From Candidatus Heimdallarchaeum aukensis (GTDB lineage: Archaea > Asgardarchaeota > Heimdallarchaeia > Heimdallarchaeales > Heimdallarchaeaceae): a stretch of 64,000 nucleotides of DNA. Shown one piece after another: positions 10,745 to 28,358 of the stretch. Every line of letters begins with the position of its first letter. Position 1 is the stretch's first letter. The DNA is taken from the NCBI GenBank assembly GCA_021513695.1, contig CP084166.1:2720001-2784000 (forward strand). Reading direction: 5' to 3'. A program made the translations under genes and the position numbers. Below the pieces are notes generated by a model, which did no database searches, was not told where the DNA came from, and saw only the letters and a program-made list of their open reading frames with translations.

Positions 10745-10863
10745 TTAATTTCAAAGACAATTTCCAGAGGAGTTTAAATAATTTAGCTTCTTTAAGATAT
10801 TTCTAGATATATGCCAGTAGAAAAATTAAGGAAAAAAAAAGAATAAATGTTAAAATGATCTAT

Positions 10864-11844
10864 CTATTCATCTTGAAAATCTCTTATTAGGGTAACTTCA
10901 AAGAGTGGTGCAGCTTTTACAGACCAGAAAACTTGTTTATCTATTATATTGCTTAGAAGGTAACGCGTTATTTCAGTTTCAGTTAAACCTGTTTTTGTTT
11001 TCTTGATACCTTGTAAATCCTTCACAAATTCTATCAACAATTTCGTTAATAGATTTGTAGATCTTATTTGTTCCATTCTGGTGGTAACTAACCAACACGA
11101 AACAGAATCATCAGCAGCCATGATAAACTGACGGTCTCTATATTTCAAAATTTCAATTATAGGAAAATGACTAGAAGAAAATTTACACTGAATGACTGGA
11201 GATAAAATATCAGAGTTCAAATTAGATTGAGGAGTAGTTAATCTCATCTCGTAAACTCCCTTATCAGTTTTGATGTAAGAAATAAACATCTCAACAGTTA
11301 TTTTGTCAACTATTAATTGTTGGATAATGCTTGAAGCTAACCAATTAATTGTTCTATCAAAATTTTTTCCTGAACTAAAGGATGTGCTTAAATACTCGAT
11401 GTTTTTTTTTCTTACTCCATCTGAAAATTTCTTAACTATGGATTTTACTTCAGAGTTAGAGAATTCTTCATCTCTCATGTTAAATAATACTAAAACAGGA
11501 TTTTCTTCTTTTAACCAATTTAAAGAGCGAGTAAACCACTTTTTAGATTCATGTAGCTGATCTTTTTTAGTAATATCTGTAACATAAATAAGTGCATCAG
11601 AGCGAGAAATAAAACTCTTCCATAAGGTCTTTCTAAAAGAAGGAAGACCACCTAAATCAGTAATATCTAATATTATACCATCGGCATTATATAACTCGTG
11701 GTTAACTCCCATTGTAGAAGTGATAATGGTGTTGTTGTAACCTAATAGACGGTTAATGAAATAAGTTTTGCCAGAATTTTCTAATCCAGCAACAGTAACA
11801 GAAATATCACGTTTCAAATAATAATAATTCGGTGACACATCCAA
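10864..11844 (-). CDS. small GTPase with C-terminal roadblock/longin-like domain (Rag/Gtr- or MglA-like)
   Basis: P-loop GLENSGKT, switch II DLGG and an NMRD (NKxD-like) motif lie in the first ~175 aa. The following ~150 aa form an alpha/beta domain. The start codon is TTG. Confidence 0.55.
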   Translation of the reverse strand: MDVSPNYYYLKRDISVTVAGLENSGKTYFINRLLGYNNTIITSTMGVNHELYNADGIILDITDLGGLPSFRKTLWKSFISRSDALIYVTDITKKDQLHESKKWFTRSLNWLKEENPVLVLFNMRDEEFSNSEVKSIVKKFSDGVRKKNIEYLSTSFSSGKNFDRTINWLASSIIQQLIVDKITVEMFISYIKTDKGVYEMRLTTPQSNLNSDILSPVIQCKFSSSHFPIIEILKYRDRQFIMAADDSVSCWLVTTRMEQIRSTNLLTKLLIEFVKDLQGIKKTKTGLTETEITRYLLSNIIDKQVFWSVKAAPLFEVTLIRDFQDE

Positions 11845-12274
11845 TCCCCAGCAATAGGTAACCCCGAAACGATCTTCATCGTAAGTAGATGTAAATTGAA
11901 TATTAAGAAGAAATACTTCTTAGTATATTCAGATTTTTAACATCCAATGAAGATTGTTTATTAAACTAGTATTAACAATATAAATATATAATTATATCGT
12001 TTTTAGTTTAAATGAACTTCTTTTAAAGTTAAAATCGTTGAAAAAAAAATTAGAGGATTGAATTAGATGAAATTACAAGAAAAAAATCAAAAAAGAGGAA
12101 GAAAGAAAAACAAAAAAAAAGCTTTTAGTTAAATTGGGAGACTGCTACTTAAAAAGAATTATCTGAACCTATAAATAGAAAGTAATGCTTATAAATGCGT
12201 CTGGTTTTCGTTGTTATAGTTAGTATAAGGAAATTTATTGTTCAAAGTGAACAAAAAGAAAAAGGTGAAATTAT

Positions 12275-13282
12275 TTGAGTTTAAAAGGATATATACTCAG
12301 ACGAACAATCTACATAGTTCCTATTATGCTTGCAATTACACTAATGAACTTTACACTGATTAACATCAGTCCAGGAGATCCTGTTTTAGTAAGATTAGGA
12401 CTGATTAAATGTGAAACACCTGAATGTTACAACGCAGCGTACAACAAAGAAGCAATAGAAATGGGACTACTAGATAATAGTTTATACACTGTTCCATGGT
12501 TCGAAAGATATATAGATTTTGTAAATGATCTATTGCATTTCGACCTAGGAAAAAGCTGGTCATATACCCAAGCAGGAGAAGGGATACCGATATCGAAAAT
12601 AATTGGAGACCACGCAGTTTATACGGTGGTGCTAAACTTACTATCATTTGTTTTATCACTATTATTATCAACAGCAATAGGGGTAGTATCAGCAACAAGA
12701 CAAAACAGTTTCTGGGATAGAACACTAACAGTAGCAATGCTATTAGGATATTCTATGCCTTTGTTCTGGTTAGCAAAATTGTTAATGCTAGTGTCCTATT
12801 ATTTATTTAACTTTACAGGAGTAGCAAACAAATCGGCGTTTAACAAACCGTTAATACTGAACCCGATGTTCTATAAGTTCTTAATATTACCAACATTGTC
12901 ACTAACACTGGGTGGACTAGTGTTCATGGCAAGGTTAATTAGATCACAACTGCTGGAGATATTAAGACAAGATTACATAACAACTGCAAAATCAAAAGGA
13001 TTAGATAGAAGAGCAGTAATATACAAACACGCGTTCAGAAATGGTTTATTGCCTATAGTAACAATTATAGGAAATTCACTACCAGGATTACTATCCGGGT
13101 CAGTAATGGTTGAGTCAGTCTTCGGATGGCCAGGATTAGGAACAATATTCCTAGAAGCTGCATTTATGAGAGATTATCCAATGATGATGGCAACAAACAC
13201 AATATTTCCATTCCTGTTCCTAATAGCAAGATTGCTGACAGATATAACCTATGTCTTTATAGACCCGAGAATAAAATACTAA
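12275..13282 (+). CDS. dppB: ABC peptide transporter permease, DppB/OppB type
   Basis: Characteristic N-terminus YILRRTIYIVPIMLAITLMNF...SPGDPV and the BPD-transport core. TTG start 7 nt after GGTGA. Confidence 0.85.
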   Translation: MSLKGYILRRTIYIVPIMLAITLMNFTLINISPGDPVLVRLGLIKCETPECYNAAYNKEAIEMGLLDNSLYTVPWFERYIDFVNDLLHFDLGKSWSYTQAGEGIPISKIIGDHAVYTVVLNLLSFVLSLLLSTAIGVVSATRQNSFWDRTLTVAMLLGYSMPLFWLAKLLMLVSYYLFNFTGVANKSAFNKPLILNPMFYKFLILPTLSLTLGGLVFMARLIRSQLLEILRQDYITTAKSKGLDRRAVIYKHAFRNGLLPIVTIIGNSLPGLLSGSVMVESVFGWPGLGTIFLEAAFMRDYPMMMATNTIFPFLFLIARLLTDITYVFIDPRIKY

Positions 13283-13301
13283 AAGAGGAGAGTAAAGAAA
13301 A

Positions 13302-14363
13302 ATGGCAACAGTTGATAAAAAAGCAGTAGAAGAGGAAGGACCAATTCTAGATGAAACAACTTTAAAAGAAATTGAAAGCATGAAAGGAGCAGGACAATGG
13401 TCTATTGTATGGAGAAGATTGAAAAAGGATACAATGGGAATGGTAGGATTATACATTGTAACATTCCTAATATTGATGGCAATAGTGTCCTGGTTCTTAC
13501 TAATGTACGATAAATGGCTATTTAATAATGTAGCACTAACAAGAGATCCAGATAATCCATACTCACTAGCTAATCTATATGTAGACTTCTGGCTACCTGG
13601 AATGAAGGAACCAATAATACTGTTCCAACATCCAGAATGGCAATTCGCAGATCAAGTAAAATTGCCACCAAGCATTGAACACCCATTTGGAACAGATAAA
13701 AACGGAAGAGATATGTTCTCAAGAGTGTTCTTTGGAGCTACAATATCAATGGCTCTAGGTTTCATTGGACAAATGACAACCGTAATCATCGGAACAATTT
13801 TAGGATCACTTTCTGGATATTATGGTGGATTATTTGACGACATCCTACAAAGAATAGTAGAATTACTATACTCAATGCCTGGATTTATCTTGCTAGTGTT
13901 CGTAATCGTGCTATTCGAAAATACAAATATACCAGGAGGAAGATACGCAGTAGTAGTAATATTCTTCTCACTAATAAGCTGGGGAGGAACAGCACTTATA
14001 GTAAGATCGAACTTCTTCTCGCTAAAACAACAAGACTTTGTAGAAGCAGAAAAAGCACTAGGGGCAGCAGACATGAGAATAATATTCAGACATATACTAC
14101 CAAACTCACTAGCACCACTGATAATTATAATAACGCTAGGTATAGCAGGAACAATATTCACATTCGCAGCACTAGCATTCTACGGATTCGGAGACCCAAA
14201 CGTCGTTTCCTGGGGTGACGACCTTAACCGCTGGCAAAATGATCTCATGACTTATCCGTGGATGCCCATGTTTCCCGCTCTAATGATATTTTTCACAGTG
14301 TTGGGTTTCAACTTACTTGGTGACGCCCTTCGTGATGCTCTTGATCCTCGTTTGAAAGATTAA
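13302..14363 (+). CDS. dppC: ABC peptide transporter permease, DppC/OppC type
   Basis: EHPFGTDKNGRDMFSRVFFGATISM motif and six predicted TM segments. It follows dppB by 19 nt. Confidence 0.85.
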   Translation: MATVDKKAVEEEGPILDETTLKEIESMKGAGQWSIVWRRLKKDTMGMVGLYIVTFLILMAIVSWFLLMYDKWLFNNVALTRDPDNPYSLANLYVDFWLPGMKEPIILFQHPEWQFADQVKLPPSIEHPFGTDKNGRDMFSRVFFGATISMALGFIGQMTTVIIGTILGSLSGYYGGLFDDILQRIVELLYSMPGFILLVFVIVLFENTNIPGGRYAVVVIFFSLISWGGTALIVRSNFFSLKQQDFVEAEKALGAADMRIIFRHILPNSLAPLIIIITLGIAGTIFTFAALAFYGFGDPNVVSWGDDLNRWQNDLMTYPWMPMFPALMIFFTVLGFNLLGDALRDALDPRLKD

Positions 14364-14710
14364 ATTAATTCTTTTTTTCCTTTTTCAATTATTTTTTCAA
14401 CTATTTCTAAAAATAATAATACTTTGAGTTTAGATAGACTCTTGTAACTTTTAAGGAAGTAGAAGCGCTAATTTATCTCTTTCAATAAAATTATTCCAGA
14501 AAACAATTGACATTTATTTCCTATCCTGTTGTTCATCAAGCAGAATTTGAGCAACCTATGCTTATATAGCATGTGGAAAAGCTTATACAGAAGGCAGAAA
14601 AGCGACATAATTATTATAAATATCTGTAAGAAAATATAGTCGCTCAACTAGTGGAAAATGTAACAAGGGAGATAAAAAAATCATGCCTAAATTACTTAGG
14701 AAAAAAAATT

Positions 14711-15340
14711 ATGTATAAATTGCTGGGAAAATTATTAATACTAATATTACTGCTTCCAATACTTATTTTTCATGGTGTGTTATCAATTAGAGGTGCTCAA
14801 CCTGTTCTCGCTTCTAGAATTTCTGAGATTACTGAAATCACAATTTCTGAATCTACTGATAACCCTTTATTTGAAAATTATACTGCTTTTAAAATCGAAG
14901 CTGAAGTAGAGATCTTAAATAGAGCTGATGAAAATCAAACAGTTATTTCTCCTGATCTTAAACTTATGATTAATGCAAGCTTGGTTAATCAATCATTGAA
15001 GTTGGTAGTGGAAGCAATGGGTTCTTGTATGGTTACTTACGACACCTATTCTCCTGGTATCACTATTGAAAATCACTCTCTTAAATTCTATATTAATCAA
15101 ACGGATTTAAGTTATCTCCCTGATGGTAATTATACTCTCTGGAGACCTATTAATGGGGGAGAAGAATTACCTACGATTATTATAATTAAATCTGGTATAA
15201 TGAATATTACTTACAGTAGTTTTGGCAATCAAGAGACTGAAGCGGTGAGCTTTTTCCTTCTGTTTCCTTTAATGTTATTCCTTCCACTCTTTTCATATGT
15301 GATTGTCTTTTCTAAATGTAAAAAGTCAGAGATTGCTTAA
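14711..15340 (+). CDS. small secreted/surface-anchored protein (N-terminal signal/TM, C-terminal TM anchor plus basic tail)
   Basis: MYKLLGKLLILILLLPILIF hydrophobic N-terminus and a C-terminal FLLFPLMLFLPLFSYVIVFSKCKK anchor. Several N-x-S/T sequons. The track start at 14651 adds 20 non-hydrophobic residues. Confidence 0.5.
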   Translation: MYKLLGKLLILILLLPILIFHGVLSIRGAQPVLASRISEITEITISESTDNPLFENYTAFKIEAEVEILNRADENQTVISPDLKLMINASLVNQSLKLVVEAMGSCMVTYDTYSPGITIENHSLKFYINQTDLSYLPDGNYTLWRPINGGEELPTIIIIKSGIMNITYSSFGNQETEAVSFFLLFPLMLFLPLFSYVIVFSKCKKSEIA

Positions 15341-15385
15341 AAGTTTCTTAGAAAAAAAACCTTACCATTTTTTGTTAAATTTTTG
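15289..15385. repeat. ~95-bp direct repeat, copy 1 (3' end of the 14711..15340 gene plus downstream spacer)
   Basis: atgtgattgtcttttctaaatgtaaaaagtcagagattgcttaaaagtttcttagaaaaaaaaccttaccattttttgttaaatttttgcc matches 19472..19565 at about 90% identity. Confidence 0.8.
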
Positions 15386-15539
15386 CCTTTGTAATCATCT
15401 TATGTGCTCTTTAGGAATTATTTAAGAGATTATATGCGACAAAGGAGTTTTGTACTGACGTGGATGAAGAAGTACATAAATTTTTTAATGTTTTTGGGAA
15501 TATGATTTAAATCTTTATAATTGGAGGAAAATTGTTCTC

Positions 15540-16484
15540 ATGTTATCAGCTAGCAATATATCAAAAACATATCCGAATGGTATTAAAGCATTGCAAGACG
15601 TAAATCTTGAGGTTTCCGAAGGAGAGATAATGGGATTTATTGGCCTAAATGGTGCAGGAAAGACTACTTTTATTAAAATTGCGAATGGTGTGCTGCAAAA
15701 TGATACAGGTAACATTACGATATGTGGTATGAACCCCATATCTGAATTAAAAAAAATAACTCGTAAAATTGCTTGGATTCCTCAAGATGGTCTAAGAAAA
15801 TTCAACACATTTCTTTCTGGTCGTGATAATATAATCTATTTTTCAAGACTGAAGGGTATGAATTCCTTGCAGATTAATCAAAAGTTAGATGAACTCTTGG
15901 AGCATCTATGTCCAGCAAAGGATTTTATTGATAAGAAAATTTCAATTATGAGTGGAGGACAAAAGCAATTGTGCAATCTGTTAACGGGTTTTGTGTTAGA
16001 TAGCGAGTTTCTATTTTGTGATGAAATTTCAGTAAATATTGATCCTATAACCTTAGATAAGATCTACTCTTATTTGCGAGAATATGCATCAGAAGGTAAG
16101 TCTGTATTATTAACCTCACAAAATCTCCATGAAATTGAAGAGTTGTCAAACACTATCGCACTATTACACAAAGGAAAGATTATGCAGGTAGGAAAACCAA
16201 AGGACATATCCAATAAACTTCTAAAATATGAAATAATCGACATAGGGTTTGAAGAAAGAATGAAGGAACTGAATTCAATAAAAGATTTTAGCTTAAAACT
16301 GGAATCAATAGCTGATAAAATAATTATTGATAATGAAAAAAATTTGATACGTATTTATTGTGAAGATTCACTGAGCCTTTTACCTCAAGTAGTTGAGTTT
16401 CTAAAAGAGTATAACTTTGCTGCATCTATAGAAAGTGGTAAAGCTGATTTAACTAATGCAATTATAACTTTAGCGGGGAGATAA
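15540..16484 (+). CDS. ABC-2 type transporter ATP-binding protein
   Basis: Walker A GLNGAGKTT, signature MSGGQKQ and Walker B LFCDE. GGAGGA sits 10 nt upstream of the ATG. Confidence 0.85.
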   Translation: MLSASNISKTYPNGIKALQDVNLEVSEGEIMGFIGLNGAGKTTFIKIANGVLQNDTGNITICGMNPISELKKITRKIAWIPQDGLRKFNTFLSGRDNIIYFSRLKGMNSLQINQKLDELLEHLCPAKDFIDKKISIMSGGQKQLCNLLTGFVLDSEFLFCDEISVNIDPITLDKIYSYLREYASEGKSVLLTSQNLHEIEELSNTIALLHKGKIMQVGKPKDISNKLLKYEIIDIGFEERMKELNSIKDFSLKLESIADKIIIDNEKNLIRIYCEDSLSLLPQVVEFLKEYNFAASIESGKADLTNAIITLAGR

Positions 16485-16486
16485 CT

Positions 16487-17326
16487 ATGAAAACGTTTAT
16501 TGCGAACTTTATAACACAAATAAAATATTTTACTGGCCTCAGAGTCATATGGATTTCAAGGATCGTTTATGTTTTTGTATCCTTACTCACCTCATTTACA
16601 ATGGGTATGGTGTATAAATTTAATGAAGCAACACAAAATTTGATAGGTGTCCAAAATGTTGCTATATTTGTTCTTACTGGCTTTTTCTTGCAATTTTTAA
16701 TGAATGCAAGTTCAGGTTATACACCAGCAGCAGTTAGGGAGATGATACAAAATGGAAACCTTGAGTATTCAGTACATTGTGGAGCTAATATTGTTCAACA
16801 AATATTGGGTATATACATCGCTTCATATCTCTTCGATTTCGTTATTTGTTTGCCTTTCATTGTTACTTTGTCTCTCTTAACCATTAATACAATTTCAGTT
16901 TACGCTTTATTGTCTTTTATAGGTTTTCTCTTTATTTCAGGTTTGTGTCTTTTTTCTATAGGCTTTCTGTTTTCTTCTCTTTACGTTCTGAGCAAGGGAT
17001 TTCTTGGTTTTCATAGTGTGATTGCAAACATAGTCTACTTTATCTGTGGGGTCTATTTTCCAATACAAGGCTATTTAACTCTATTCGGTTCTGTGGGTGG
17101 CTGGATTGCCATAGCTATTGTGTCTATTTTTCCGTATACATATGTATTTGACCTATCACGTTATATGATTTTTCTCGGGCAAAATTATCAAACGTTTTTA
17201 CCTTTTGGTATTGAATTGATAATATTCATTTGTTCTTCAATTTTAATAATGCTTATTGCAATGCAACTATTCAAGTTAGGATTTAAAAGAATGAGAAAAA
17301 AAGGTTTCATAAGTTTTATCTACTAA
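16487..17326 (+). CDS. ABC-2 type transporter permease
   Basis: Polytopic membrane protein of six TM segments, translationally coupled to the upstream ATPase by a TAACTATG junction. Confidence 0.7.
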   Translation: MKTFIANFITQIKYFTGLRVIWISRIVYVFVSLLTSFTMGMVYKFNEATQNLIGVQNVAIFVLTGFFLQFLMNASSGYTPAAVREMIQNGNLEYSVHCGANIVQQILGIYIASYLFDFVICLPFIVTLSLLTINTISVYALLSFIGFLFISGLCLFSIGFLFSSLYVLSKGFLGFHSVIANIVYFICGVYFPIQGYLTLFGSVGGWIAIAIVSIFPYTYVFDLSRYMIFLGQNYQTFLPFGIELIIFICSSILIMLIAMQLFKLGFKRMRKKGFISFIY

Positions 17327-17451
17327 TTCTAAATTTTCATTTTTCCCTTATTTTTTCTTATTCTTCCTTTTTCTTGATTTTTAGATTGTTTTTACTGCAA
17401 CTTATTAAGTAACAATTAAAAATAATAAAACTAATTATCTCTTGATTAAAC

Positions 17452-19464
17452 GTGCGTGATAATTTTTTCTTTCTTAGAAGGTTAAATCTTTTGGGTAAAC
17501 TTGAGAAGTTCGATAAATATTTTTCTTCTATTGATTGGACTTCTATTTTGGATGAAATCAATGAACGCTTGTTTTTTTTTGGTGGAGGTTATAGTCGCAT
17601 TCTTGATTTATTTTCTGCTACTCTCATTGAACGTGGTATTTGGTTTGATTCTCGTTATTATATGAGCAATAAAGTTCTTAAAATTGTCTTTAAGGTTTTA
17701 TCTCAGTTTGCAGATAACAACCTTATTTTTTCTTTAGTTTCTGCTTTGGATGACTACGATTCTGATGTTCGTGCTGCTGTTGCTGAGCTGTTAGGTCTAA
17801 TTGGCCATTCTCTTGCTGTTGACCCCTTAATCAAATTACTCAAAGATGAGAATTGCTTTGTTCGCAGTAGTGTTGTCATAGCTTTGGGTAAGCTTGGTGA
17901 TCCTCGCTCCATTGCTGCATTTAATGATATTGCCTTATATGATGATTCCCAGGGTGTGCGTGCCGATGTTATACGATCCTTGAGAGAGATAGGTGATCCT
18001 CTTGGTGTTTCCCTTCTAATCGAAGCCCTAAAAGATGAGGATAGTATTGTTGTAAGAGCTGCTTTAGAAGTCTTGCTAGAATTGGTTGATTCTGGTTCTG
18101 TTGAGTTATTAATAGAAGCTCTAAAAGATAGGCATTGGTTTGTTCGCAGTAGTGTTGCAGAAGCGTTAGGCAAAATAGGAGACCCTAGAGCCATTGACTC
18201 CCTAGTAGCTGCCTTGAAAGATAAGGATTATTTTGTTCGCAGTAGTGTTGCAAAAGCTTTAAGTAAAATGGACGATTCTAGAGCCATTGACTCCCTAGTA
18301 GCTGCCTTAAAAGATAAAGATTTGCGAATGCGTCGTATTGCTGCAGAAGTGTTGGGAGAAATAGGTGACTCTAGGGCAGTTGAACCCTTAATAGATGTAG
18401 CTCTAAAAGATGAGGGTTTTTTTGTGCGTGAAAAAGCTATAATACTGTTAGGTGAACTAGGTGATTCTAGAGCAGTCAAGCCCTTAATAGAATTACTAAA
18501 AGATGAAGATTGGGAAGTGCGTCGTAATGTTGCAACAGCGTTGGGTAAAATAGGTGACCCTAGAGCCATTGAACCATTAATCAATGCAACTCTATATGAT
18601 GGTAATTGTGAAGTGTGTTATTTTTCTAAAGAGTCACTGATAAAAATAGGTGATATGAGTGCCGTTGAACCTCTAATAGAAGGACTGAAAGATAAGCATC
18701 CTTCTGTTCGTTGTGTTGCTGCTGAAGTGTTAGGTGAACTAGGTGATTCTAGAGCTGTCAAGCCCTTAATAGAATTACTAAAAGATGAAAATAGGAAAGT
18801 GCGTTGTGATGCTGCAGAAGCGTTAGGTAAAATAGGTGACCCTAGAGCCATTGAACCATTAATCAATGCAACATTATACGATGATGTTTTTCATGTGCGT
18901 AATAATGCTGCCTCGGCACTGAGAGAAATAGGCGTTTCTAGTGCTGTTGAACCATTAGTTAAACTAGCCTTATATGATGAAGATTCAGAAGTGCGTAAAA
19001 ATGCTGCTTATGCTTTAGGTGAAATATGTAATCCTAATGTCGTTGACCCATTAATCGATGCAGACCTATATGATGATGAGGAAGTGTGTGAAAATGCTTC
19101 CTCTGAGTTAGGTTTAAGATGTGATCCTAGTTCAGCTGAATTATTAGTAAATTTAACACTCTATGAGGAGGATTCAGTAGTGCGTGCAAGAGCTTTAAAT
19201 TTATTGGTTCAAATACGTGATTCAATTGCAATAGAAAAATTAATCAATATAGTGCTGTATGATGAAGATTCAGAAGTGCGTAAAAATGCCGCAAAAGCCT
19301 TAGGTGAGATAGGTGATACAAATTCATTTGAAACATTAATAATGAATGCCCTAGATGATGACGAGGGGAAAGTGACTAAAAATGTTGAAGAAGCTGTAAG
19401 AATAATGGGCGATCCTGAATTAATTGAATCACTAGAAGATGCCCTATTAAATAAGAGTTGGTAA
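17452..19464 (+). CDS. HEAT-repeat (PBS-lyase HEAT-like) protein, about 18 tandem repeats
   Basis: About 31-aa units such as VRxxAAEALGKIGDPRAIEPLIxALKDxD reiterate from residue ~95 to the C-terminus. The start is uncertain: GTG at 17452, with the first in-frame ATG far downstream. Confidence 0.8.
   Translation: MRDNFFFLRRLNLLGKLEKFDKYFSSIDWTSILDEINERLFFFGGGYSRILDLFSATLIERGIWFDSRYYMSNKVLKIVFKVLSQFADNNLIFSLVSALDDYDSDVRAAVAELLGLIGHSLAVDPLIKLLKDENCFVRSSVVIALGKLGDPRSIAAFNDIALYDDSQGVRADVIRSLREIGDPLGVSLLIEALKDEDSIVVRAALEVLLELVDSGSVELLIEALKDRHWFVRSSVAEALGKIGDPRAIDSLVAALKDKDYFVRSSVAKALSKMDDSRAIDSLVAALKDKDLRMRRIAAEVLGEIGDSRAVEPLIDVALKDEGFFVREKAIILLGELGDSRAVKPLIELLKDEDWEVRRNVATALGKIGDPRAIEPLINATLYDGNCEVCYFSKESLIKIGDMSAVEPLIEGLKDKHPSVRCVAAEVLGELGDSRAVKPLIELLKDENRKVRCDAAEALGKIGDPRAIEPLINATLYDDVFHVRNNAASALREIGVSSAVEPLVKLALYDEDSEVRKNAAYALGEICNPNVVDPLIDADLYDDEEVCENASSELGLRCDPSSAELLVNLTLYEEDSVVRARALNLLVQIRDSIAIEKLINIVLYDEDSEVRKNAAKALGEIGDTNSFETLIMNALDDDEGKVTKNVEEAVRIMGDPELIESLEDALLNKSW
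17750..19330. repeat. DNA-level tandem ~93-bp repeats encoding the HEAT units
   Basis: Nearly identical nucleotide blocks recur, for example ggtgaccctagagccattgaaccattaatcaatgcaac at about 18560 and again at about 18836. They produce long spurious antisense ORFs. Confidence 0.7.
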
Positions 19465-19471
19465 ATGTGAT

Positions 19472-19565
19472 ATGTGCTTGTTTTTTCTAAATGTAAAAAA
19501 TCAGAAACTGCTTAAAAGTTTCTTAGAAAAAAATCTTACCTTTTTTGTTAAATTTTTTCTTTTCT
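19472..19565. repeat. ~95-bp direct repeat, copy 2
   Basis: atgtgcttgttttttctaaatgtaaaaaatcagaaactgcttaaaagtttcttagaaaaaaatcttaccttttttgttaaattttttc matches 15289..15385. Confidence 0.8.
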
Positions 19566-19597
19566 CTTTCCTTTCTCTTCTTTTTTGCTAACTTTTG

Positions 19598-19810
19598 TTA
19601 ATACCTGAATCTTTCTCTAGATTTTAAATAAATTTCCATCAGTTTTGGTTTTTTTGACGCTCTATCCATTAGTTCTTCAATTTCTTTCTTTGGTTGTCCT
19701 TTTTCTGCTTTAATTCTTGATGTAGTAACGATCACATAAATTAACATCGCAGTAATAGCTAAAAAACCTCCAAAAACGATTATACCGAAGGCTACTATTA
19801 CTATATTCAT
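19598..19810 (-). CDS. small single-TM membrane protein (70 aa), paralogue 1
   Basis: MNIVIVAFGIIVFGGFLAITAMLIYVIVTTSRIK..., a TM helix plus a K/E-rich tail. About 75% identical to the ORF at 20082..20297. Confidence 0.5.
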   Translation of the reverse strand: MNIVIVAFGIIVFGGFLAITAMLIYVIVTTSRIKAEKGQPKKEIEELMDRASKKPKLMEIYLKSRERFRY

Positions 19811-19860
19811 CGAATAATAATAGCTTTCAACAATTAAATACTTTTGGAAAAAAGGTATAA

Positions 19861-20080
19861 TTAATTATCTCTTAATTTTTTGTTCATATGCCTTCATTAG
19901 TTCCTTAAAGCTTCTTCTTTTGTAATATCTTTTGGATTTAAGGTAAGTGTTCCATCGTTTATCGCTTTTTCTGTTATTTCTTCTAGCTGTTCTTCTTTTT
20001 CTCCCTCCTCTTTCAATGTTTTTGGTAATTTTGTTAATTAACCTTTCTTGAAGTTCTTCTACTTTTTTTTACTGACTTAT
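19861..20080 (-). pseudogene. decayed duplicate of the 3' end of the Fe-alcohol-dehydrogenase gene
   Basis: The nucleotide sequence parallels 20341..20560 (adh C-terminal ~70 codons) at roughly 85% identity, but in-frame stops break the ORF. Confidence 0.6.
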
Positions 20081-20081
20081 G

Positions 20082-20297
20082 TTAAAACCATAATCTTCCC
20101 TTATACTGTAAATAATTTTCCATTAATTTTGTATTTTTTGCTGCTCTATCCATTAATTCTTCAATTTTCTTTTTTGGTTGTCCTTTTATTGGTTTGATTC
20201 TTGATGTCGTAGCAATTAGATAAATTAATATCGACATAATAGCAAAAAAGCCTACAAAAACAATTACTCCAAAGGCTACTATTAGTGAACTCATCAT
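20082..20297 (-). CDS. small single-TM membrane protein (71 aa), paralogue 2
   Basis: MMSSLIVAFGVIVFVGFFAIMSILIYLIATTSRIK..., immediately downstream of adh on the same strand. Confidence 0.5.
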   Translation of the reverse strand: MMSSLIVAFGVIVFVGFFAIMSILIYLIATTSRIKPIKGQPKKKIEELMDRAAKNTKLMENYLQYKGRLWF

Positions 20298-20360
20298 ATA
20301 ATAATAGTATTCGACAGTTATATACTTTTGGAAAAAGGGTATTAATTATTTCTTAATTTT

Positions 20361-21542
20361 TTATTCATATGCCTTCATTAGTATCCTTAAAGCTTCTTCT
20401 TTTGTTACATCTTTTGGATTTAAGGTAAGTGATCCATCATTTATCGCTTTTTCTGCTATTTCTTCTAGTTGTTCTTCTTTCACTCCTGCTTCTTTCAATG
20501 TTTTTGGTAATTTTATTAGTTCATTTAACCTCTCTTGAAGTTCTTCTATTTTTTCTATGAACTTTCTAGCTCTTTCTTTTTCTTCAGTTTTTACATATAT
20601 TTCTTCTCCCGCTAGTGGTAAAAGTAGTTCTTTTAACTCTTCTTTAATCTCTTCGTAGTTGAATTTAAGCACATGTGGTAGAAATATGTTCATTGCTACT
20701 CCATGAGGAATTTTTGCTACTGCTCCTGCAGCGTGTCCTAAACTATGTACTAGACCGACCATAGAATTAGAAAAAGCTACTCCTGCCATTGTTGCTGCTA
20801 TTGCCATTTCTAATCTTCTTTCTTTGTCCTTTCCATTTTTCACTAGTTCAACGATGTTTTTACTAATTAATTCTATAGCCTTCCATGCATAGACGTCGCT
20901 AAAGAGGTTTTTTTGTAAACAAGTATATGCTTCTATAGCGTGAGTTAGTGCGTCCATAGCTGTTAAAGCTGTTATATAAGCTGGTAGGGTAATAGTCATT
21001 CGTGGATCTATTACTGCTACGTCAGGCATAAGATATCGTGAAGTAAATAACATTTTAGTTGCAGACTTGTCATCTTTTATCACAGCAACTGCTGTTACTT
21101 CTGAACCTGTACCTGCAGTAGTAGGAATAACAAAAAGAGGTCTAAGCGGACGTTTTAATCTTTCTGCTCCAGCAAATTCTTTTAGATCTTTTCCTTTTTC
21201 TGAAACTAAGATATTTACTCCTTTTGCTGTATCTATTACTGATCCTCCGCCTATTGCTATTATCCCATCACATTTTTTTTCATTATAGATTTCTGCTATT
21301 TTATTTACTTCCTCGGTTGAAGAATCTTGAGGTATGTCATCTATTATAGCAGGGAATATTACATCTGCTCCTCCACATGCTTTAATTACTTTATCTACCA
21401 ACCCTGCTTTGTTTACTCCTCTATCAGTGAGAATGATAGGTCTTTTTACTCTGAAATTATCAAATTCCGAAGGCAAGTTTTCTAAAGCTTTTTTGCCTGC
21501 TAATATTTTTGTCTTATTCTGAAATTCAAAATATTCTTTCAT
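20361..21542 (-). CDS. iron-containing (group III) alcohol dehydrogenase
   Basis: GGGSVIDTAKG, the HGVAMNIFLPHVLKFN metal-site region and the Fe-ADH fold. The track start at 21551 is GTG; the likely start is ATG 21542 (MKEYFEF...). It lies 5 nt downstream of aor. Confidence 0.85.
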   Translation of the reverse strand: MKEYFEFQNKTKILAGKKALENLPSEFDNFRVKRPIILTDRGVNKAGLVDKVIKACGGADVIFPAIIDDIPQDSSTEEVNKIAEIYNEKKCDGIIAIGGGSVIDTAKGVNILVSEKGKDLKEFAGAERLKRPLRPLFVIPTTAGTGSEVTAVAVIKDDKSATKMLFTSRYLMPDVAVIDPRMTITLPAYITALTAMDALTHAIEAYTCLQKNLFSDVYAWKAIELISKNIVELVKNGKDKERRLEMAIAATMAGVAFSNSMVGLVHSLGHAAGAVAKIPHGVAMNIFLPHVLKFNYEEIKEELKELLLPLAGEEIYVKTEEKERARKFIEKIEELQERLNELIKLPKTLKEAGVKEEQLEEIAEKAINDGSLTLNPKDVTKEEALRILMKAYE

Positions 21543-21556
21543 TTTTTTCACCTTTA

Positions 21557-23935
21557 TTAAATGTTAAAAGGAATTGAGAATAAATATAGGTAAATTCTAA
21601 CAATATATCTCTTCATTAAATTAATAGTAGGTATTTTTCGCATTATTCTTTTTGCAATAATTCTTGGAAAAAGATAGGTTTCTGTGATATTTAGGCAACG
21701 TATTAGAGACATAGCAATTTGAGTATCTCCTTTAACTTTTATTGCATTAGATGCATAAGCATGATGTATGCCTTTCTGAGCAGTCATTAACTCAAAAGCA
21801 GCGTCTATAGTTCTAAAAGTAATAACTAGATCTGCTTGTTTTTCTGGAATCTTTTGAGGATTTAAGACTCCTTTTTTATTCTTTAAAAGCCCTAAACTAG
21901 TTTCATAGTTATCTACATTAAATAAAATCTTGAAATTTGTTGGCCAAGATCTAATCTCTTGCTTAATATTAGAATCAATAGTTGATAATGTCTTCATTGC
22001 TCTTCCTAAAATTGTAAAAACTAAAGATACTATTCTTTCTTTAATTCTCTTAGGTTTAGGTTGGAATCCTTCTTCTATTCCTAACTTTTTCATGACCTTT
22101 GCTGTTGGGACACCGTTTCTTGAATAACCTCTAATCTTGTAATACTTTTCTTGCATCTCTTCTAAGGGGACAACTTTTTTCTTTTTATCGCTCTCTCTTC
22201 CTTCATTTAGGAATCGTTCAGGAAGAGTATCATCTATTCTTGAGACACCTATCAAGGTGTTCATATATCTTTCTAGAATATGAATTCTTTCACCTGCTTT
22301 GAGAAAATCACGAGAACTTTGTTTTATTCCAGTTACAGTTTCAAATAATTTAGAGTAAATACTTATATCTAATACTTTTTGCGTTATTCTTGGAAAATAG
22401 CTAATAAAGATTTTCAGAAATATTTTTGGCGGATACTTTGCTATTGGTGCTTCTAACATAAAGGCATAAGAAGTAAAAATACATAATTGTAGTGAATTAA
22501 TTGCTGAAAAGAGATTTTCCATGTAATAAACAAACTGTGCTTTAGCTCGCTTCGATTCTCCTTTAAGAAAATTGAAAAATGCTTCTAGGGTGAATAATGA
22601 TGCAGAAAGGTGACACGCTCCTCTATTTGCAACACTGTAGGATAGCCCTTGTCCCCAACATCCTCTTGGATCATATCCTGAAAATTCTAGACCTTTAATA
22701 TTCATTGCAAATCCTTTTCCACCATATTTTTCTGCTAGCCTTTTAGTTCCAAGGGCTAACTCTTCTCCTATTCCTTTTCTGTATGCAATGTCATAAAGTA
22801 TTTCAGAAACTCCTTCTGGAGAACCAAATTTTAGTGGAAAAGAAAAGAGATTTTTCTCATTAGCTTCTATGGCATATGCTAATGTTACAGATATAGAAAT
22901 AGTATCTAATCCTAATCTTGAACAAATTTCATTCCATTCAGCAATTTTTTCAGCATCATATATCTCTAGATTAGAACCAAATAAACTTGTGGTCTCATAT
23001 TCTGGAGCTTGAATTAATTTACCGTTGAACATTCCTTTATGTCCACAGAGGATTGCACAGTTCCTGCAAGAGCTGTATTTCTTATAGAATTCGGACTTTA
23101 ATCTTTCACCATACAGTTCACTAGCTTTTTCGCTCATACCTTTTGTGAAATTGCGAACTGGTAAGATCTTTTTTTCGTTACATATCCTAAAACCAGCGTT
23201 TGTGCCATAATTTCTGTATAAATCTGAAGTATATTCGTTTCTATTAATATACTTAATTGCTTTTCTTTTTATTTTCATGTATTTCTTTTCTTTTTTTGGT
23301 TTTATTCTGAAAGAACCTTTTTCAACAACAATAGCTTTAAGGTTTTTAGCTCCAAAGACAGCTCCTATTCCTCCTCTACCAAAAAATCTGTGTCCAGAAG
23401 CTACATTGGCATAAAGAACCCTATTTTCTCCTGCAGGACCAATAACTAGATTCCCTTTATTTTTTGCTTCTAGTAATTCTTGAGTCTCAAAGATATCTTT
23501 ACCCCAAATTTTAGAAGCACTGTTAAATGAAACACCGTTTTCTGTAATAGATAGATAAGTTGGTTCTTTTGCTTGCCCTTTTATTATTACTCCGTCATAA
23601 CCTACAGATTTCAAGAAAAACGCAAATGACCCTCCACAAGATGAAGAAACTATTAAACCTGTAAGCGGAGATTTAGTAACAGCAGCAAAGCGAGAAGAAT
23701 TGGGTGCACCAGTTCCAACCATTACTCCACCAAAGATGGCAATAATGTTATCTTCACCTAAAGGGTCACAAGACAGATCCATCTTTTTATATAGATAGTA
23801 AATGGCTAATCCCTTTCCTCCGAGATAAAGTTTTCTTTCTTCATTACTTATAGAAACTGTTGTAAAAGCTTTCTTTGTAAGATCAATCTCAAGTAGTTTG
23901 TTGTGAGACCCTAAAATCAACCTAGGACTAGTCAT
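21557..23935 (-). CDS. aor: tungsten-type aldehyde:ferredoxin oxidoreductase with C-terminal SCP2 sterol-carrier-like domain
   Basis: N-terminal LGGKGLAIYYLY...APNSSRFAAVTKSPLTG and the CRNCAILC 4Fe-4S motif. The FETVTG...KAGERIHILERYMNT...DTLPERFLNEG segment also matches the AOR family. Residues ~630-760 (NPQKIPEKQADLVITFRTIDAAFELMTAQKGIHHAYASNAIKVKGD) match the SCP2 fold consensus (ADxTITMxDxDFLALMTGKLNPQxAFxxGKLKIKG). Confidence 0.85.
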   Translation of the reverse strand: MTSPRLILGSHNKLLEIDLTKKAFTTVSISNEERKLYLGGKGLAIYYLYKKMDLSCDPLGEDNIIAIFGGVMVGTGAPNSSRFAAVTKSPLTGLIVSSSCGGSFAFFLKSVGYDGVIIKGQAKEPTYLSITENGVSFNSASKIWGKDIFETQELLEAKNKGNLVIGPAGENRVLYANVASGHRFFGRGGIGAVFGAKNLKAIVVEKGSFRIKPKKEKKYMKIKRKAIKYINRNEYTSDLYRNYGTNAGFRICNEKKILPVRNFTKGMSEKASELYGERLKSEFYKKYSSCRNCAILCGHKGMFNGKLIQAPEYETTSLFGSNLEIYDAEKIAEWNEICSRLGLDTISISVTLAYAIEANEKNLFSFPLKFGSPEGVSEILYDIAYRKGIGEELALGTKRLAEKYGGKGFAMNIKGLEFSGYDPRGCWGQGLSYSVANRGACHLSASLFTLEAFFNFLKGESKRAKAQFVYYMENLFSAINSLQLCIFTSYAFMLEAPIAKYPPKIFLKIFISYFPRITQKVLDISIYSKLFETVTGIKQSSRDFLKAGERIHILERYMNTLIGVSRIDDTLPERFLNEGRESDKKKKVVPLEEMQEKYYKIRGYSRNGVPTAKVMKKLGIEEGFQPKPKRIKERIVSLVFTILGRAMKTLSTIDSNIKQEIRSWPTNFKILFNVDNYETSLGLLKNKKGVLNPQKIPEKQADLVITFRTIDAAFELMTAQKGIHHAYASNAIKVKGDTQIAMSLIRCLNITETYLFPRIIAKRIMRKIPTINLMKRYIVRIYLYLFSIPFNI

Positions 23936-24078
23936 TTTTTTTAAAAGAAAAGAACTTGTTTAAATTTTTTTGTACTGGTAACGGAAATATTATGGTTTTC
24001 TATATTGGTAGAACTCAAAGAGAGAAAGTGAAAAAAAATGAAGAAGCAAACAAAAAAAGAAAAAAGAAAAAAAGGAGT

Positions 24079-28347: not shown

Positions 28348-28358
28348 GTGAATAAAGA

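What the first reader, a model, noticed from the sequence alone, without database searches (positions are those of the whole stretch)
15289..19565. ~95-bp direct repeats bracket an ABC-2 transporter + HEAT-repeat protein cassette
The last ~50 nt of the 14711..15340 gene plus ~45 nt of downstream spacer (15289..15385) recur at about 90% identity, immediately after the HEAT-repeat gene stop (19472..19565). The second copy is a non-coding remnant. The three genes between the copies (ABC-2 ATPase, ABC-2 permease, 18-repeat HEAT protein) therefore look like an inserted or duplicated segment flanked by a long target duplication, or a recombination product.
Basis: seen in the sequence. Interest (0 to 1): 0.55.

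Follow-up and report, generated by a model that had tools for sequence, protein, structure and literature searches.

The report
Old insertion scar with 95-bp duplication
In the Asgard archaeon Ca. Heimdallarchaeum aukensis, a 4.1-kb three-gene segment sits between two diverged copies of a 95-bp stretch that is single-copy and uninterrupted in the sister species, so this is a real but old, ordinary rearrangement scar and not an active mobile element.

Summary
Window 15295-15390 and 19470-19563 align at 86/96 (89.6%, two 1-nt gaps, E 4e-30), and these are the only two copies in 64 kb. Three independent short-read assemblies reproduce both junctions.

The window is Ca. Heimdallarchaeum aukensis. 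In the sister species Ca. H. endolithica, the predicted empty site exists. Gene A is followed directly by the small ORFs, adh and AOR, and one 94-bp stretch aligns to both window copies. The 4,079 bp between the copies (a DrrA-like ABC ATPase, a permease and a HEAT-repeat gene) is therefore lineage-specific.

I found no integrase, transposase, tRNA, terminal inverted repeats or structured RNA. The 23-nt repeat core occurs once in the complete H. endolithica genome and in no related sequence in the collections scanned.

There is one twist. The HEAT gene has an ortholog in H. endolithica on the other side of gene A, on the opposite strand. The "cassette" is therefore at least partly local DNA reshuffled within a variable island that splits an opp operon.

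The copies differ about as much as the two species' intergenic DNA, so the event is old.

The most likely cause is a one-off illegitimate insertion (staggered break or template switch). Integration of a circle cannot be excluded. Interest is low to moderate.

The parts
14711..15340 (+). Gene A: 209-aa membrane-anchored protein of unknown function, with N- and C-terminal hydrophobic segments. The family was found only in Heimdallarchaeia-type MAGs.
   Evidence: ORF. No Pfam, NCBIfam or PADLOC hit. 95 homologs; every one that a source names is Heimdallarchaeota/Heimdallarchaeaceae or 'Asgard group'. 88-91% aa identity to H. endolithica K9W46_13055.
15295..15390 (+). Repeat copy R1: the last 46 nt of gene A (functional, includes the stop codon) plus 50 nt of T-tract-rich spacer.
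   Evidence: Aligns to L001 10585-10678 with 8 substitutions.
15391..19469 (+). Lineage-specific segment of 4,079 bp, absent from the orthologous position in H. endolithica.
   Evidence: GC content is like the flanks.
15391..15539 (+). 149-bp leader upstream of the ABC ATPase gene, origin untraceable.
   Evidence: No similarity to any part of L001 or to other loci beyond chance.
15540..16484 (+). ABC transporter ATPase, DrrA/NodI-like (ABC-2 type).
   Evidence: PF00005 at 2.8e-22. TIGR01188 drrA at 167 bits, below the cutoff. 45-48% identity to ATPases that pair with the permease homologs in L003-L007.
16487..17326 (+). Membrane permease partner (279 aa).
   Evidence: Only 5 relatives among 5.8 billion proteins. 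One is identical: Ca. H. aukensis K9W45_12095. The other four are 47-51% identical; one carries PF12698 and one PF01061, the latter marked weak. None is from H. endolithica.
17350..19476 (+). HEAT unit (promoter region, gene, and 12 nt past the stop). It is homologous to an inverted unit at L001 9516-7382, on the other side of gene A in H. endolithica.
   Evidence: BLASTN at 69-76%. Boundary alignments.
17452..19464 (+). HEAT-repeat protein (670 aa): a roughly 95-aa N-terminal non-repeat domain followed by about 18 repeats of 31 aa.
   Evidence: PF13646 at 373 bits. Period 93 nt. 47% aa identity to the H. endolithica 677-aa protein, with a conserved N-terminal domain. dS 0.60, dN/dS 0.61.
19470..19563 (+). 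Repeat copy R2. Its left 46 nt are a non-coding relic of the end of gene A. Its right 48 nt are the original spacer, contiguous with the small-ORF region as in H. endolithica.
   Evidence: 11 substitutions against L001, 7 of them in the ex-coding half.
19470..19476 (+). Right junction. ATATGTG can be aligned both to the sequence after the HEAT stop in H. endolithica and to the end of gene A, giving 3-7 nt of possible microhomology.
   Evidence: Weak: short, and in AT-rich sequence.
19598..19810 (-). Small membrane ORF (70 aa), convergent with gene A in the empty-site genome and with the HEAT gene here.
   Evidence: 96% aa identity to the H. endolithica ORF.
19573..20540 (.). Neighbouring 484-bp tandem duplication (small ORF plus a relic of the adh 3' end at 19902-20039). 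It starts 10 nt after R2 and is shared with H. endolithica.
14558..14608 (+). Relic of the 3' end of an upstream S8-peptidase-like gene. It marks the left edge of the block shared with H. endolithica.
   Evidence: the gene end is intact in L008.

Best explanation
**What it is.** The two repeats are the scar of a single old rearrangement in the Ca. H. aukensis lineage. A 4,079-bp piece of DNA (ABC-2-type ATPase, permease and a HEAT-repeat gene) was placed in the convergent terminator region between gene A and a small membrane ORF. In the process, 94-96 bp of the target was duplicated: the last 46 nt of gene A plus about 50 nt of spacer.

**What is shown.**
- The target is single-copy and uninterrupted in the sister species.
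- The segment carries no recombinase, no terminal inverted repeats and no second copy.
- Its HEAT gene is a resident gene of this neighbourhood. The ortholog lies on the other side of gene A in the sister species, on the opposite strand.
- The two copies have diverged by about 9% in substitutions plus 2 indels.

**What is inferred.**
- The event was an illegitimate, non-site-specific one. The candidates are a double-strand break with about 94-nt staggered ends that were filled in and joined to the incoming DNA, or a replication template switch that left the template at 15390 and re-entered 94 nt upstream at 15295 through a few bases of microhomology (ATATGTG).
- It happened within a rearrangement-prone island that splits the opp operon.
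- R1 stays under selection because it finishes gene A. The left half of R2 is a decaying relic. The T- and A-tract half of R2 now lies where transcription of the HEAT gene and the convergent small ORF would end.
- The structure is not an active mobile element. The 25-nt identical core could still allow loss of the segment by homologous recombination.
For: - **Repeat is real.** It is unique within the window, and both junctions are confirmed in three independent assemblies.
- **Empty site.** Both flanks are collinear at 91-93% in H. endolithica, and L001 10585-10678 matches both copies.
- **No mobile-element features.** There is no integrase or transposase in the segment, nor in 42 of the 47 ORFs of 150 aa or more in the window that I scanned. 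There is no tRNA, no Rfam match and no significant RNA structure. The segment ends show no inverted repeats.
- **Repeat core is not multi-copy.** The 23-mer core occurs once among 185,579 representative genomes, in H. endolithica. The 21-mer scan of JGI metagenomes gave only an unrelated chance hit, and the viral contig scan gave none.
- **Segment is not viral.** No relatives of the permease or of gene A were found on viral contigs.
- **HEAT gene is local.** The ortholog is adjacent to gene A but inverted in H. endolithica and in a second endolithica-like population. Its dS of 0.60 is similar to neighbouring vertically inherited genes: OppB 0.47, OppC 0.40, Arf 0.83.
- **Junction.** Possible microhomology at the right junction.
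- **Age.** The three-way alignment is star-like, with 3-6 private changes per sequence. R1 and R2 differ at 8/94 positions; R1 vs endolithica 8/94; R2 vs endolithica 11/94. Interspecies intergenic divergence in this region is 5-33%.
- **Other scars in the same island.** These are an adh 3' relic inside a tandem duplication, a peptidase 3' relic upstream of gene A, and the separation of OppBC from OppDF.
Against: - A 94-bp duplication is unusually long for a simple break-and-fill event, and I observed no intermediate.
- The microhomology is only 3-7 nt in AT-rich DNA.
- The source of the ABC-permease pair is unknown. The nearest relatives are 45-51% identical, and H. endolithica has none.
- No trace of a former HEAT gene remains between OppC and gene A in this window. 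Moving the HEAT gene therefore needs at least one further event.
- Polarity is not proven, because outgroups have entirely different contexts around gene A. The segment and the duplication could predate the species split and have been lost in H. endolithica.
- I could not scan the rest of the H. aukensis chromosome for further copies.
Confidence: 0.55

Rival explanations
1. **Integration of a circular intermediate at an att-like site.** A circle carrying leader, ABC ATPase, permease, HEAT gene and an R-like segment recombined with the chromosomal R. This could have happened by homologous (Campbell-type) crossover or through a recombinase supplied in trans. The result is an attL/attR-like pair in which the element's copy completes gene A and the displaced native end stays as a relic. 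Under this model the 10% divergence partly predates integration.
For: - The direct repeats overlap the 3' end of a gene, and the intact gene end lies at one junction with the relic at the other. This is the usual layout of integrative elements.
- A 25-nt perfectly identical core (TGCTTAAAAGTTTCTTAGAAAAAAA) is flanked by diverged arms.
- There is a weak trend for R1 to match H. endolithica left of the core (3 of 4 informative sites) and for R2 to match it right of the core (3 of 5).
- An 8-mer, TATGTGCT, occurs only twice in the window, at 15401 and 19471, both within 11 nt of a junction.
Against: - No integrase was found in the segment or in the 42 ORFs scanned.
- The segment has a single copy, and R occurs nowhere else.
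- The site pattern is not significant (about p = 0.5 by my own count).
- The HEAT gene is a resident, vertically inherited neighbour, not cargo from elsewhere.
- Integrated elements described in Asgard archaea carry their own tyrosine integrase, and the one att motif given in the text is 11 bp (PMC11529989).
Confidence: 0.22
2. **Ancestral structure, secondary loss.** The segment and both repeats were already present in the common ancestor, or in the shared gene A-AOR block. H. endolithica lost the segment by homologous recombination between R1 and R2, so its 'empty site' is a deletion product. The scar still originated as an insertion with duplication, but earlier.
For: - The three sequences form a star, and R1-R2 divergence is no smaller than either copy's divergence from H. 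endolithica.
- H. endolithica lacks any ABC-permease homolog, which fits loss.
- Direct repeats of about 94 nt could mediate such a deletion.
Against: - The single H. endolithica copy shows no clear R1-like-left, R2-like-right mosaic. Informative sites are interleaved.
- H. endolithica has its own HEAT ortholog outside the block, in a different place. Under this model the ancestor would have needed two HEAT genes, or a further relocation.
- Measured against typical synonymous divergence (dS 0.4-0.8), the 9% R1-R2 divergence looks younger than the species split, if R evolves neutrally.
Confidence: 0.13
3. **Two-step origin.** R2 is what is left of a second full-length copy of gene A that once followed the HEAT gene. 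Either the gene A unit was duplicated upstream of the ABC operon, or a small tandem duplication of R formed first. A later deletion, or an insertion exactly between the copies, then produced today's layout.
For: - Small duplications that leave gene-end relics do occur in this island. There is a 484-bp tandem duplication with an adh 3' relic 10 nt from R2, and a roughly 30-nt mini-duplication at the start of gene A.
Against: - It needs two or more events whose breakpoints coincide: the deletion must end within 5 nt of the HEAT stop, or the insertion must fall exactly between two tandem copies.
- No other fragment of a second gene A exists in the window.
- The left edge of the gene A unit is essentially the same in both species, within about 13 nt. 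That would be a coincidence if the unit had been copied to a new place in only one of them.
Confidence: 0.08
4. **Generic element or artefact.** R is a generic multi-copy intergenic or terminator element or a structured RNA, or the repeat is an assembly error.
For: R contains T- and A-tracts typical of archaeal termination regions.
Against: - Two copies in 64 kb, and one in the complete H. endolithica genome. There are no related copies in metagenomes or viral contigs.
- No Rfam hit, and folding energy is no better than shuffled sequence (z = +0.85, -1.1 and +1.1).
- Half of R is coding sequence of gene A.
- Both junctions are reproduced at 99.8-100% by three independent assemblies.
Confidence: 0.02

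Closest known systems
Duplications flanking rearrangements made by staggered breaks or template switching (the staggered-break model for inversion breakpoints; FoSTeS/MMBIR-type insertions).
   Same: A one-off event with no recombinase. Tens to hundreds of bp of single-copy target are duplicated at the junctions. The junction shows a few bases of possible microhomology. The inserted DNA is at least partly drawn from the immediate neighbourhood. Other scars cluster nearby.
   Different: These models were worked out mostly in eukaryotes and bacteria. Nothing is known experimentally for Asgard archaea. Here the duplication is direct and flanks an insertion, and no intermediate or donor copy survives.
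Integrative elements with att direct repeats that overlap the 3' end of a target gene (tyrosine-recombinase islands and proviruses, including HeimV1 at tRNA-Gly in H. endolithica; PMC8813620)
   Same: Direct repeats bracket a lineage-specific segment. The repeat includes the 3' end of a gene. That gene is kept intact at one junction, with a relic at the other. There is an identical core of 25 nt.
   Different: There is no integrase in or near the segment, no tRNA target and no evidence of a circular form. The segment is single-copy, the cargo includes a resident neighbour gene, and the repeats are 10% diverged.
Transposon or IS target-site duplications, and Heimdallarchaeum aloposons (PMC8813620)
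   Same: A duplicated target flanks inserted DNA.
   Different: Target-site duplications of transposons and IS elements are typically a few bp to about 15 bp and of fixed length (general knowledge). Here there is no transposase, no terminal inverted repeats, none of the giant aloposon genes, and only one copy.
Integrated mobile elements of Atabeyarchaeia (PMC11529989)
   Same: Lineage-specific integrated segments of 1.3-40 kb in Asgard genomes, defined by comparing filled and empty sites.
   Different: Those described in the text carry their own integration machinery. The example given, Yucahu-i, has an 11-bp att motif and shows excision in read data. None of this holds here, although read data could not be examined.

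Membership tests
Transposon / insertion sequence with target-site duplication | Transposase (or TnpB-type nuclease) encoded in the element | tested here: not met
   Pfam on all three genes shows only ABC_tran and HEAT families, and nothing for the permease. NCBIfam and PADLOC give only generic domain hits.
Transposon / insertion sequence with target-site duplication | Terminal inverted repeats at the element ends | tested here: not met
   No inverted-repeat pair joins the 15391 and 19469 ends. Direct reading of the ends agrees.
Transposon / insertion sequence with target-site duplication | Short target duplication of fixed length, and multiple copies per genome | tested here: not met
   The duplication is 94-96 bp. 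The segment is single-copy in the window, and the permease has one cluster in H. aukensis. The rest of the chromosome was not scanned.
Integrative element (site-specific recombinase, attL/attR) | Integrase gene inside the element, next to an att site | tested here: not met
   No integrase in the segment or in 42 of the 47 large ORFs of the window.
Integrative element (site-specific recombinase, attL/attR) | Direct repeats with an identical core at both junctions, overlapping the 3' end of the target gene | tested here: met
   A 25-nt identical core lies within the 96-nt repeat. R1 completes gene A, and R2 is the relic.
Integrative element (site-specific recombinase, attL/attR) | Excised circular form, or an empty site within the same population | not testable with these tools
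   Raw reads cannot be searched. The three Logan assemblies show only the filled arrangement.
Campbell-type integration by homologous recombination | Mosaic repeats: R1 is host-like to the left of the crossover, R2 host-like to the right | tested here: inconclusive
   9 informative sites: 3 of 4 on the left favour R1, and 3 of 5 on the right favour R2. Not significant.
Illegitimate insertion with duplication (staggered break / template switch) | No recombinase, a single-copy target duplicated, and microhomology at a junction | tested here: met
   The microhomology is short (3-7 nt), so this feature is only weakly met.
Illegitimate insertion with duplication (staggered break / template switch) | Inserted DNA copied or moved from nearby sequence | tested here: inconclusive
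   The HEAT unit has an ortholog next to gene A in the sister species. The origin of the ABC-permease pair and the 149-bp leader is untraceable.
Multi-copy intergenic repeat / terminator element or structured RNA | Many copies per genome, or a conserved structure | tested here: not met
   One copy in the complete H. endolithica genome and two in this window. The only metagenome hit is unrelated, and viral contigs gave none. No Rfam hit, and folding z-scores of +0.85, -1.1 and +1.1.
   The ATPase's best match is TIGR01188 drrA at 167 bits, against a cutoff of 312. The permease has no Pfam hit of its own. Of its four homologs, P0097 carries PF12698 and P0099 carries PF01061, the latter marked weak.

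The most novel reading that the evidence does not exclude
R is a genuine attachment site. Under this reading, the 3' end of gene A would be a protein-gene integration target in Heimdallarchaeum, and the ABC-permease-HEAT segment would be a non-autonomous cassette. It would move as a circle and be integrated or excised by a recombinase encoded elsewhere in the genome. The relocation of the HEAT gene from one side of gene A to the other would be a trace of such excision and reintegration. That would be a new integrase-less, att-bounded cassette type in Asgard archaea, with an unusually long (about 95 bp) att.
Probability: 0.08. Interest if true: 0.6.

Novelty: new member of a known kind. Interest (0 to 1): 0.3.

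Why it matters
On its own this is a routine piece of genome archaeology. It is a clean filled-site/empty-site pair between the two circularised Heimdallarchaeum genomes. It shows that a 4-kb gene segment can be placed in an Asgard archaeal chromosome without any recognisable mobile-element machinery, leaving a roughly 95-bp duplication.

It would matter more if a whole-genome comparison showed that many lineage-specific segments in these genomes carry similar long duplications. That would point to a general, recombinase-independent route of gene shuffling in the archaeal group closest to eukaryotes.

The locus also gives a small, well-defined case for three further questions:
- How fast a resident HEAT-repeat protein evolves: 47-53% aa identity, depending on the alignment, against a genome-wide AAI of 90%.
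- How an operon (opp) tolerates a 13-kb variable island.
- Whether patches of recent gene flow between the species stop at structural differences.

Tried and rejected
- **More alleles of the locus.** The closest gene A relatives beyond H. endolithica (L002 and L008 at 80-83% aa; L017 at 56%) have completely different neighbours, so they cannot polarise the event.
- **A recurrent breakpoint.** I briefly thought homology in L002 broke at the left edge of R. L008 showed this is just a divergent C-terminal tail plus a small deletion. Dropped.
- **A donor for the segment.** The four permease relatives (L003-L007) have the ABC-permease pair followed by unrelated genes, with no HEAT gene and no gene A. 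The HEAT search was swamped by generic HEAT proteins. Its only useful hit was P0101 (L010), which belongs to an endolithica-like population with the same layout as L001.
- **Relics in H. endolithica and in this window.** I looked for relics of the ABC-permease pair in H. endolithica, and for relics of a former HEAT gene between OppC and gene A in this window. I also compared the window-specific spacers (14407-14570, 15391-15539) with the endolithica-specific spacers (L001 6648-7381, 9517-9890). BLASTN (word size 7), tblastn and tblastx found nothing beyond low-complexity matches.
- **Flanking repeats in H. endolithica.** There are no direct repeats around the endolithica-specific 3.2-kb segment.
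- **Copies of R elsewhere.** Viral contigs gave nothing, and the metagenome scan gave only an unrelated chance hit.
- **RNA features.** Rfam, tRNA and RNA-folding checks of R were all negative. The sigma-70 and intrinsic-terminator scan does not apply to archaea and found nothing useful.
- **Defence-system reading.** PADLOC hits are generic domain matches only: mad3 for the ATPase and HEAT-ARM for the repeats.
- **Inverted-duplication model.** I considered a model in which an operon on the other side of gene A is copied in reverse and the original is then lost. It explains the change of side and strand of the HEAT gene, but no sequence trace supports it, so it remains speculation.
- **Exact-sequence look-ups.** Look-ups of the GTG-start gene A and HEAT ORFs failed. 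The public annotation probably uses other start codons.

Full report
**1. The observation**

The repeat is real. The repeat finder reports 15295-15371 vs 19470-19546 (77 nt, 86% ungapped), with a continuation at 15370-15390 vs 19543-19563. Gapped BLASTN merges these into one alignment, 15295-15390 vs 19470-19563. It has 86/96 identities, two single-base gaps, and E = 3.8e-30 against the whole 64-kb window.

Nothing else in the window matches this stretch above noise. A self-comparison of the window finds only three items outside the internal HEAT repeats:
- this pair;
- an adjacent 484-bp tandem duplication;
- a 51-nt motif shared by paralogous Proton_antipo_M genes (Pfam assignment).

Copy 1 (R1) is the last 46 nt of the gene at 14711-15340 (gene A) with its stop codon, plus 50 nt of spacer. 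Copy 2 (R2) begins 5 nt after the stop of the HEAT gene and is non-coding, because TAA and TGA precede it in frame.

Short-read contigs assembled independently from three sequencing runs match the window at 99.8-100% across both junctions, so this is not an assembly artefact.

**2. The organism and the empty site**

The permease between the repeats is identical to K9W45_12095 of Ca. Heimdallarchaeum aukensis. This is one of two circularised Heimdallarchaeum genomes. The two genomes share 88% ANI and 90% AAI (PMC8813620).

The sister species, Ca. H. endolithica, has the orthologous locus (L001, CP084167.1). The gene order there is Arf-type GTPase, OppB, OppC, a 677-aa gene on the minus strand, gene A, then directly two small ORFs, adh and AOR.

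| Window | L001 | Identity |
|---|---|---|
| 14571-15390 | 9891-10678 | 91% |
| 19470-25021 | 10585-16163 | 92.8% |

The 94 bp at L001 10585-10678 therefore align to both R1 and R2, and window 15391-19469 (4,079 bp) has no counterpart there.

**3. What R is not**

- **Not a multi-copy element.** The invariant 23-mer core occurs once among the representative genomes of 185,579 species, in H. endolithica. A 21-mer version finds only an unrelated sequence in JGI metagenomes and nothing in viral contigs.
- **Not a known or structured RNA, and not a tRNA target.**
- **Not bounded by mobile-element features.** The segment has no integrase, transposase or terminal inverted repeats. None turned up in 42 of the 47 ORFs of 150 aa or more in the window.

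**4. What lies between the repeats**

- **149-bp leader.** Its origin cannot be traced.
- **ABC ATPase.** Its best NCBIfam match is DrrA, below the cutoff.
- **Permease (279 aa).** It has only four other relatives in 5.8 billion proteins, at 47-51% identity, and none in H. endolithica. In those genomes the ATPase-permease pair is followed by unrelated genes.
- **HEAT-repeat protein (670 aa).** It has a roughly 95-aa N-terminal domain and about 18 repeats of 31 aa.

The HEAT gene is not foreign. The 677-aa minus-strand gene to the left of gene A in H. endolithica is its homolog. The two share 47% aa identity, a clearly conserved N-terminal domain, and homology that extends about 100 nt upstream and 12 nt downstream. 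A second, endolithica-like population has the same arrangement (L010, 96.6% nt identity to L001).

Synonymous divergence of the two HEAT genes (dS 0.60) is in the range of the neighbouring vertically inherited genes: OppB 0.47, OppC 0.40, Arf 0.83. Non-synonymous divergence is very high (dN 0.36, dN/dS 0.61). So this is a fast-evolving resident gene. It sits on different sides of gene A, and on different strands, in the two species.

The "cassette" is thus composite, and at least partly a local reshuffle.

**5. The neighbourhood is a rearrangement hot spot**

- OppB and OppC (12275-14363) are separated from OppD and OppF (27298-29564) by 12.9 kb.
- That island contains the R duplication.
- Ten nucleotides after R2 is a 484-bp tandem duplication carrying a relic of the adh 3' end. 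It is shared with H. endolithica.
- Just upstream of gene A is a relic of the 3' end of an S8-peptidase-like gene. That gene end is intact in a third lineage.
- At the start of gene A is a roughly 30-nt mini-duplication.
- Collinearity with H. endolithica breaks again at window 25021.

Gene-end relics at breakpoints are therefore the local norm.

**6. Age**

| Comparison | Substitutions |
|---|---|
| R1 vs R2 | 8/94, plus 2 indels |
| R1 vs H. endolithica | 8/94 |
| R2 vs H. endolithica | 11/94 (7 in the ex-coding half, consistent with relaxed constraint) |

Alignable intergenic stretches between the species differ by 5-33%. Site by site, the three sequences form a star, with no clean mosaic.

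The duplication is therefore old. It is of the same order as the divergence of this region between the two species. If R is neutral and is measured against typical dS, it is somewhat younger than the species split.

Divergence along the shared block is patchy. The gene A body, adh and the 5' part of AOR differ by 2-4%, with dS of 0.09-0.18. Divergence rises next to the insertion on both sides. This pattern would fit recent inter-species recombination in patches that stop at the structural difference. I note it but did not test it.

**7. Mechanism**

Shown: an insertion-type difference with a 94-96-bp duplication of single-copy target, with no recombinase, no inverted ends, no extra copies, and a resident gene among the inserted DNA.

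Inferred as most likely (about 0.55): a one-off illegitimate event. The candidates are a staggered double-strand break with fill-in of about 94-nt overhangs, or a replication template switch that re-entered the original template 94 nt behind where it left. At the right junction, ATATGTG (19470-19476) can be aligned both to the sequence after the HEAT stop in H. endolithica and to the end of gene A. This is compatible with microhomology-mediated joining, but it is short.

The rivals:

| Rival | Confidence | Main points |
|---|---|---|
| Circle carrying an R-like segment, integrated by homologous or site-specific recombination | about 0.22 | For: the 25-nt identical core and the 'gene completed / relic left' layout. 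Against: no integrase, no copies, and local cargo. |
| Segment ancestral and lost in H. endolithica through R1 x R2 recombination | about 0.13 | Changes the timing, not the nature of the scar. |
| Two-step duplication and deletion | about 0.08 | Needs coinciding breakpoints. |
| Generic repeat or artefact | about 0.02 | Rejected. |

Moving the HEAT gene across gene A needs at least one more event under every model. I found no sequence trace of it.

**8. Consequences (inference)**

R1 keeps gene A complete. The spacer half of R, with its T-tracts on the plus strand and an A-tract that reads as T8 on the minus strand, is the convergent termination zone of gene A and the small ORF in the empty-site genome. 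After the event, gene A and the HEAT gene each have a copy of this zone downstream. The 25-nt and two 17-nt identical runs could still support loss of the segment by homologous recombination.

**9. Comparison with known systems**

- It behaves like the duplication-flanked rearrangements attributed to staggered breaks or template switching.
- It resembles an att-bounded integrative element in layout, but fails the defining test of carrying an integrase.
- It fails every defining feature of a transposon target-site duplication.
- Integrated elements described in Asgard archaea carry integration machinery or giant genes, and the one att motif given in the text is 11 bp (PMC8813620, PMC11529989).
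- The locus falls below the repeat threshold used in the genome paper (100 bp and 95% identity). None of the passages of that paper returned by my term search mention this locus.

**10. Verdict**

It is a new example of a known kind of genome scar, of low to moderate interest (0.3).

The most novel reading still open is a non-autonomous cassette using a roughly 95-bp att in a protein-coding gene. I put that at about 8%.

Noticed in passing
window 12275-14363 and 27298-29564: The oligopeptide ABC transporter operon is split. OppB and OppC are separated from OppD and OppF (both with the oligo_HPY domain) by a 12.9-kb variable island holding gene A, the ABC-2 pair, the HEAT gene, two small ORFs, adh, AOR and a 980-aa ORF. 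No substrate-binding protein gene was seen next to OppB.
   Followed up: partly
window 19573-20056 / 20057-20540: A 484-bp tandem duplication starts 10 nt after R2. Each unit carries a 70/71-aa membrane ORF (64% aa identity to each other). The distal unit holds a relic of the adh 3' end (19902-20039, 91% identical to 20384-20521). It is shared with H. endolithica and is therefore older than the shared block.
   Followed up: partly
window 14558-14608; L008 2-142: A relic of the last ~15 codons of an S8-peptidase-like gene (..YAYIACGKAYTEGRKAT*) lies just upstream of gene A. The gene end is intact in a third Heimdallarchaeaceae lineage. H. aukensis keeps about 13 nt more of it than H. endolithica, and the sequence to its left differs between the two species.
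   Followed up: partly
window 17452-19464 vs L001 7395-9428: The HEAT-repeat orthologs of the two sister species are 47% identical by BLASTP and tblastn, or 53% over MAFFT-aligned columns (genome-wide AAI is 90%). dS is 0.60 and dN/dS 0.61. Inside the gene, a 282-nt block (three repeats) is duplicated at 83% identity. This looks like a fast-evolving, internally recombining repeat protein.
   Followed up: partly
window 14711-15294, 20361-22300 vs L001: Divergence from H. endolithica is patchy. The gene A body, adh and the 5' part of AOR differ by 2-4% (dS 0.09-0.18), whereas OppB and OppC, at 99% aa identity, have dS 0.40-0.47. Divergence rises next to the insertion on both sides. This would fit patches of recent gene flow between the species that stop at the structural difference.
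   Followed up: partly
window 14684-14720: A roughly 30-nt insertion or mini-duplication (repeated AAATTACTT(A)GG) at the 5' end of gene A puts a stop codon in the frame of the start used in H. endolithica. It moves the likely start to the ATG at 14711.
   Followed up: no
window 15401-15408 and 19471-19478: The 8-mer TATGTGCT occurs only twice in the 64-kb window on either strand. One copy is 11 nt inside the left end of the inserted segment, and the other is at the first bases of R2. After allowing for the many 8-mers one could have looked at, this is marginal (about p = 0.04). Its meaning is unknown.
   Followed up: partly
window 24079-27021 (-) vs L001 15230-16891 (-): The ORF after AOR is 980 aa here and 553 aa in H. 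endolithica. Only the C-terminal ~310 codons are homologous, and collinearity of the two genomes ends inside the gene at window 25021. It has no Pfam, NCBIfam or PADLOC hit.
   Followed up: no
L001 19387-20630: A TnpB/Cas12f-like gene (PF07282) lies about 3 kb beyond the end of collinearity in H. endolithica. It is the only mobile-element-type gene seen near either version of the island.
   Followed up: no
window 10864-11844 (-) and 32376-33038 (-): Two eukaryote-like proteins: an Arf-family small GTPase with a roughly 150-aa C-terminal extension, and a GPP34 (Golgi phosphoprotein 3) homolog (PF05719, 2e-18).
   Followed up: no
window 45325-45375 and 48820-48870: A 51-nt direct repeat (86%) lies in two of four consecutive paralogous Proton_antipo_M (Nuo/Mrp-type) genes. 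It is a conserved paralog motif, not a rearrangement scar.
   Followed up: yes
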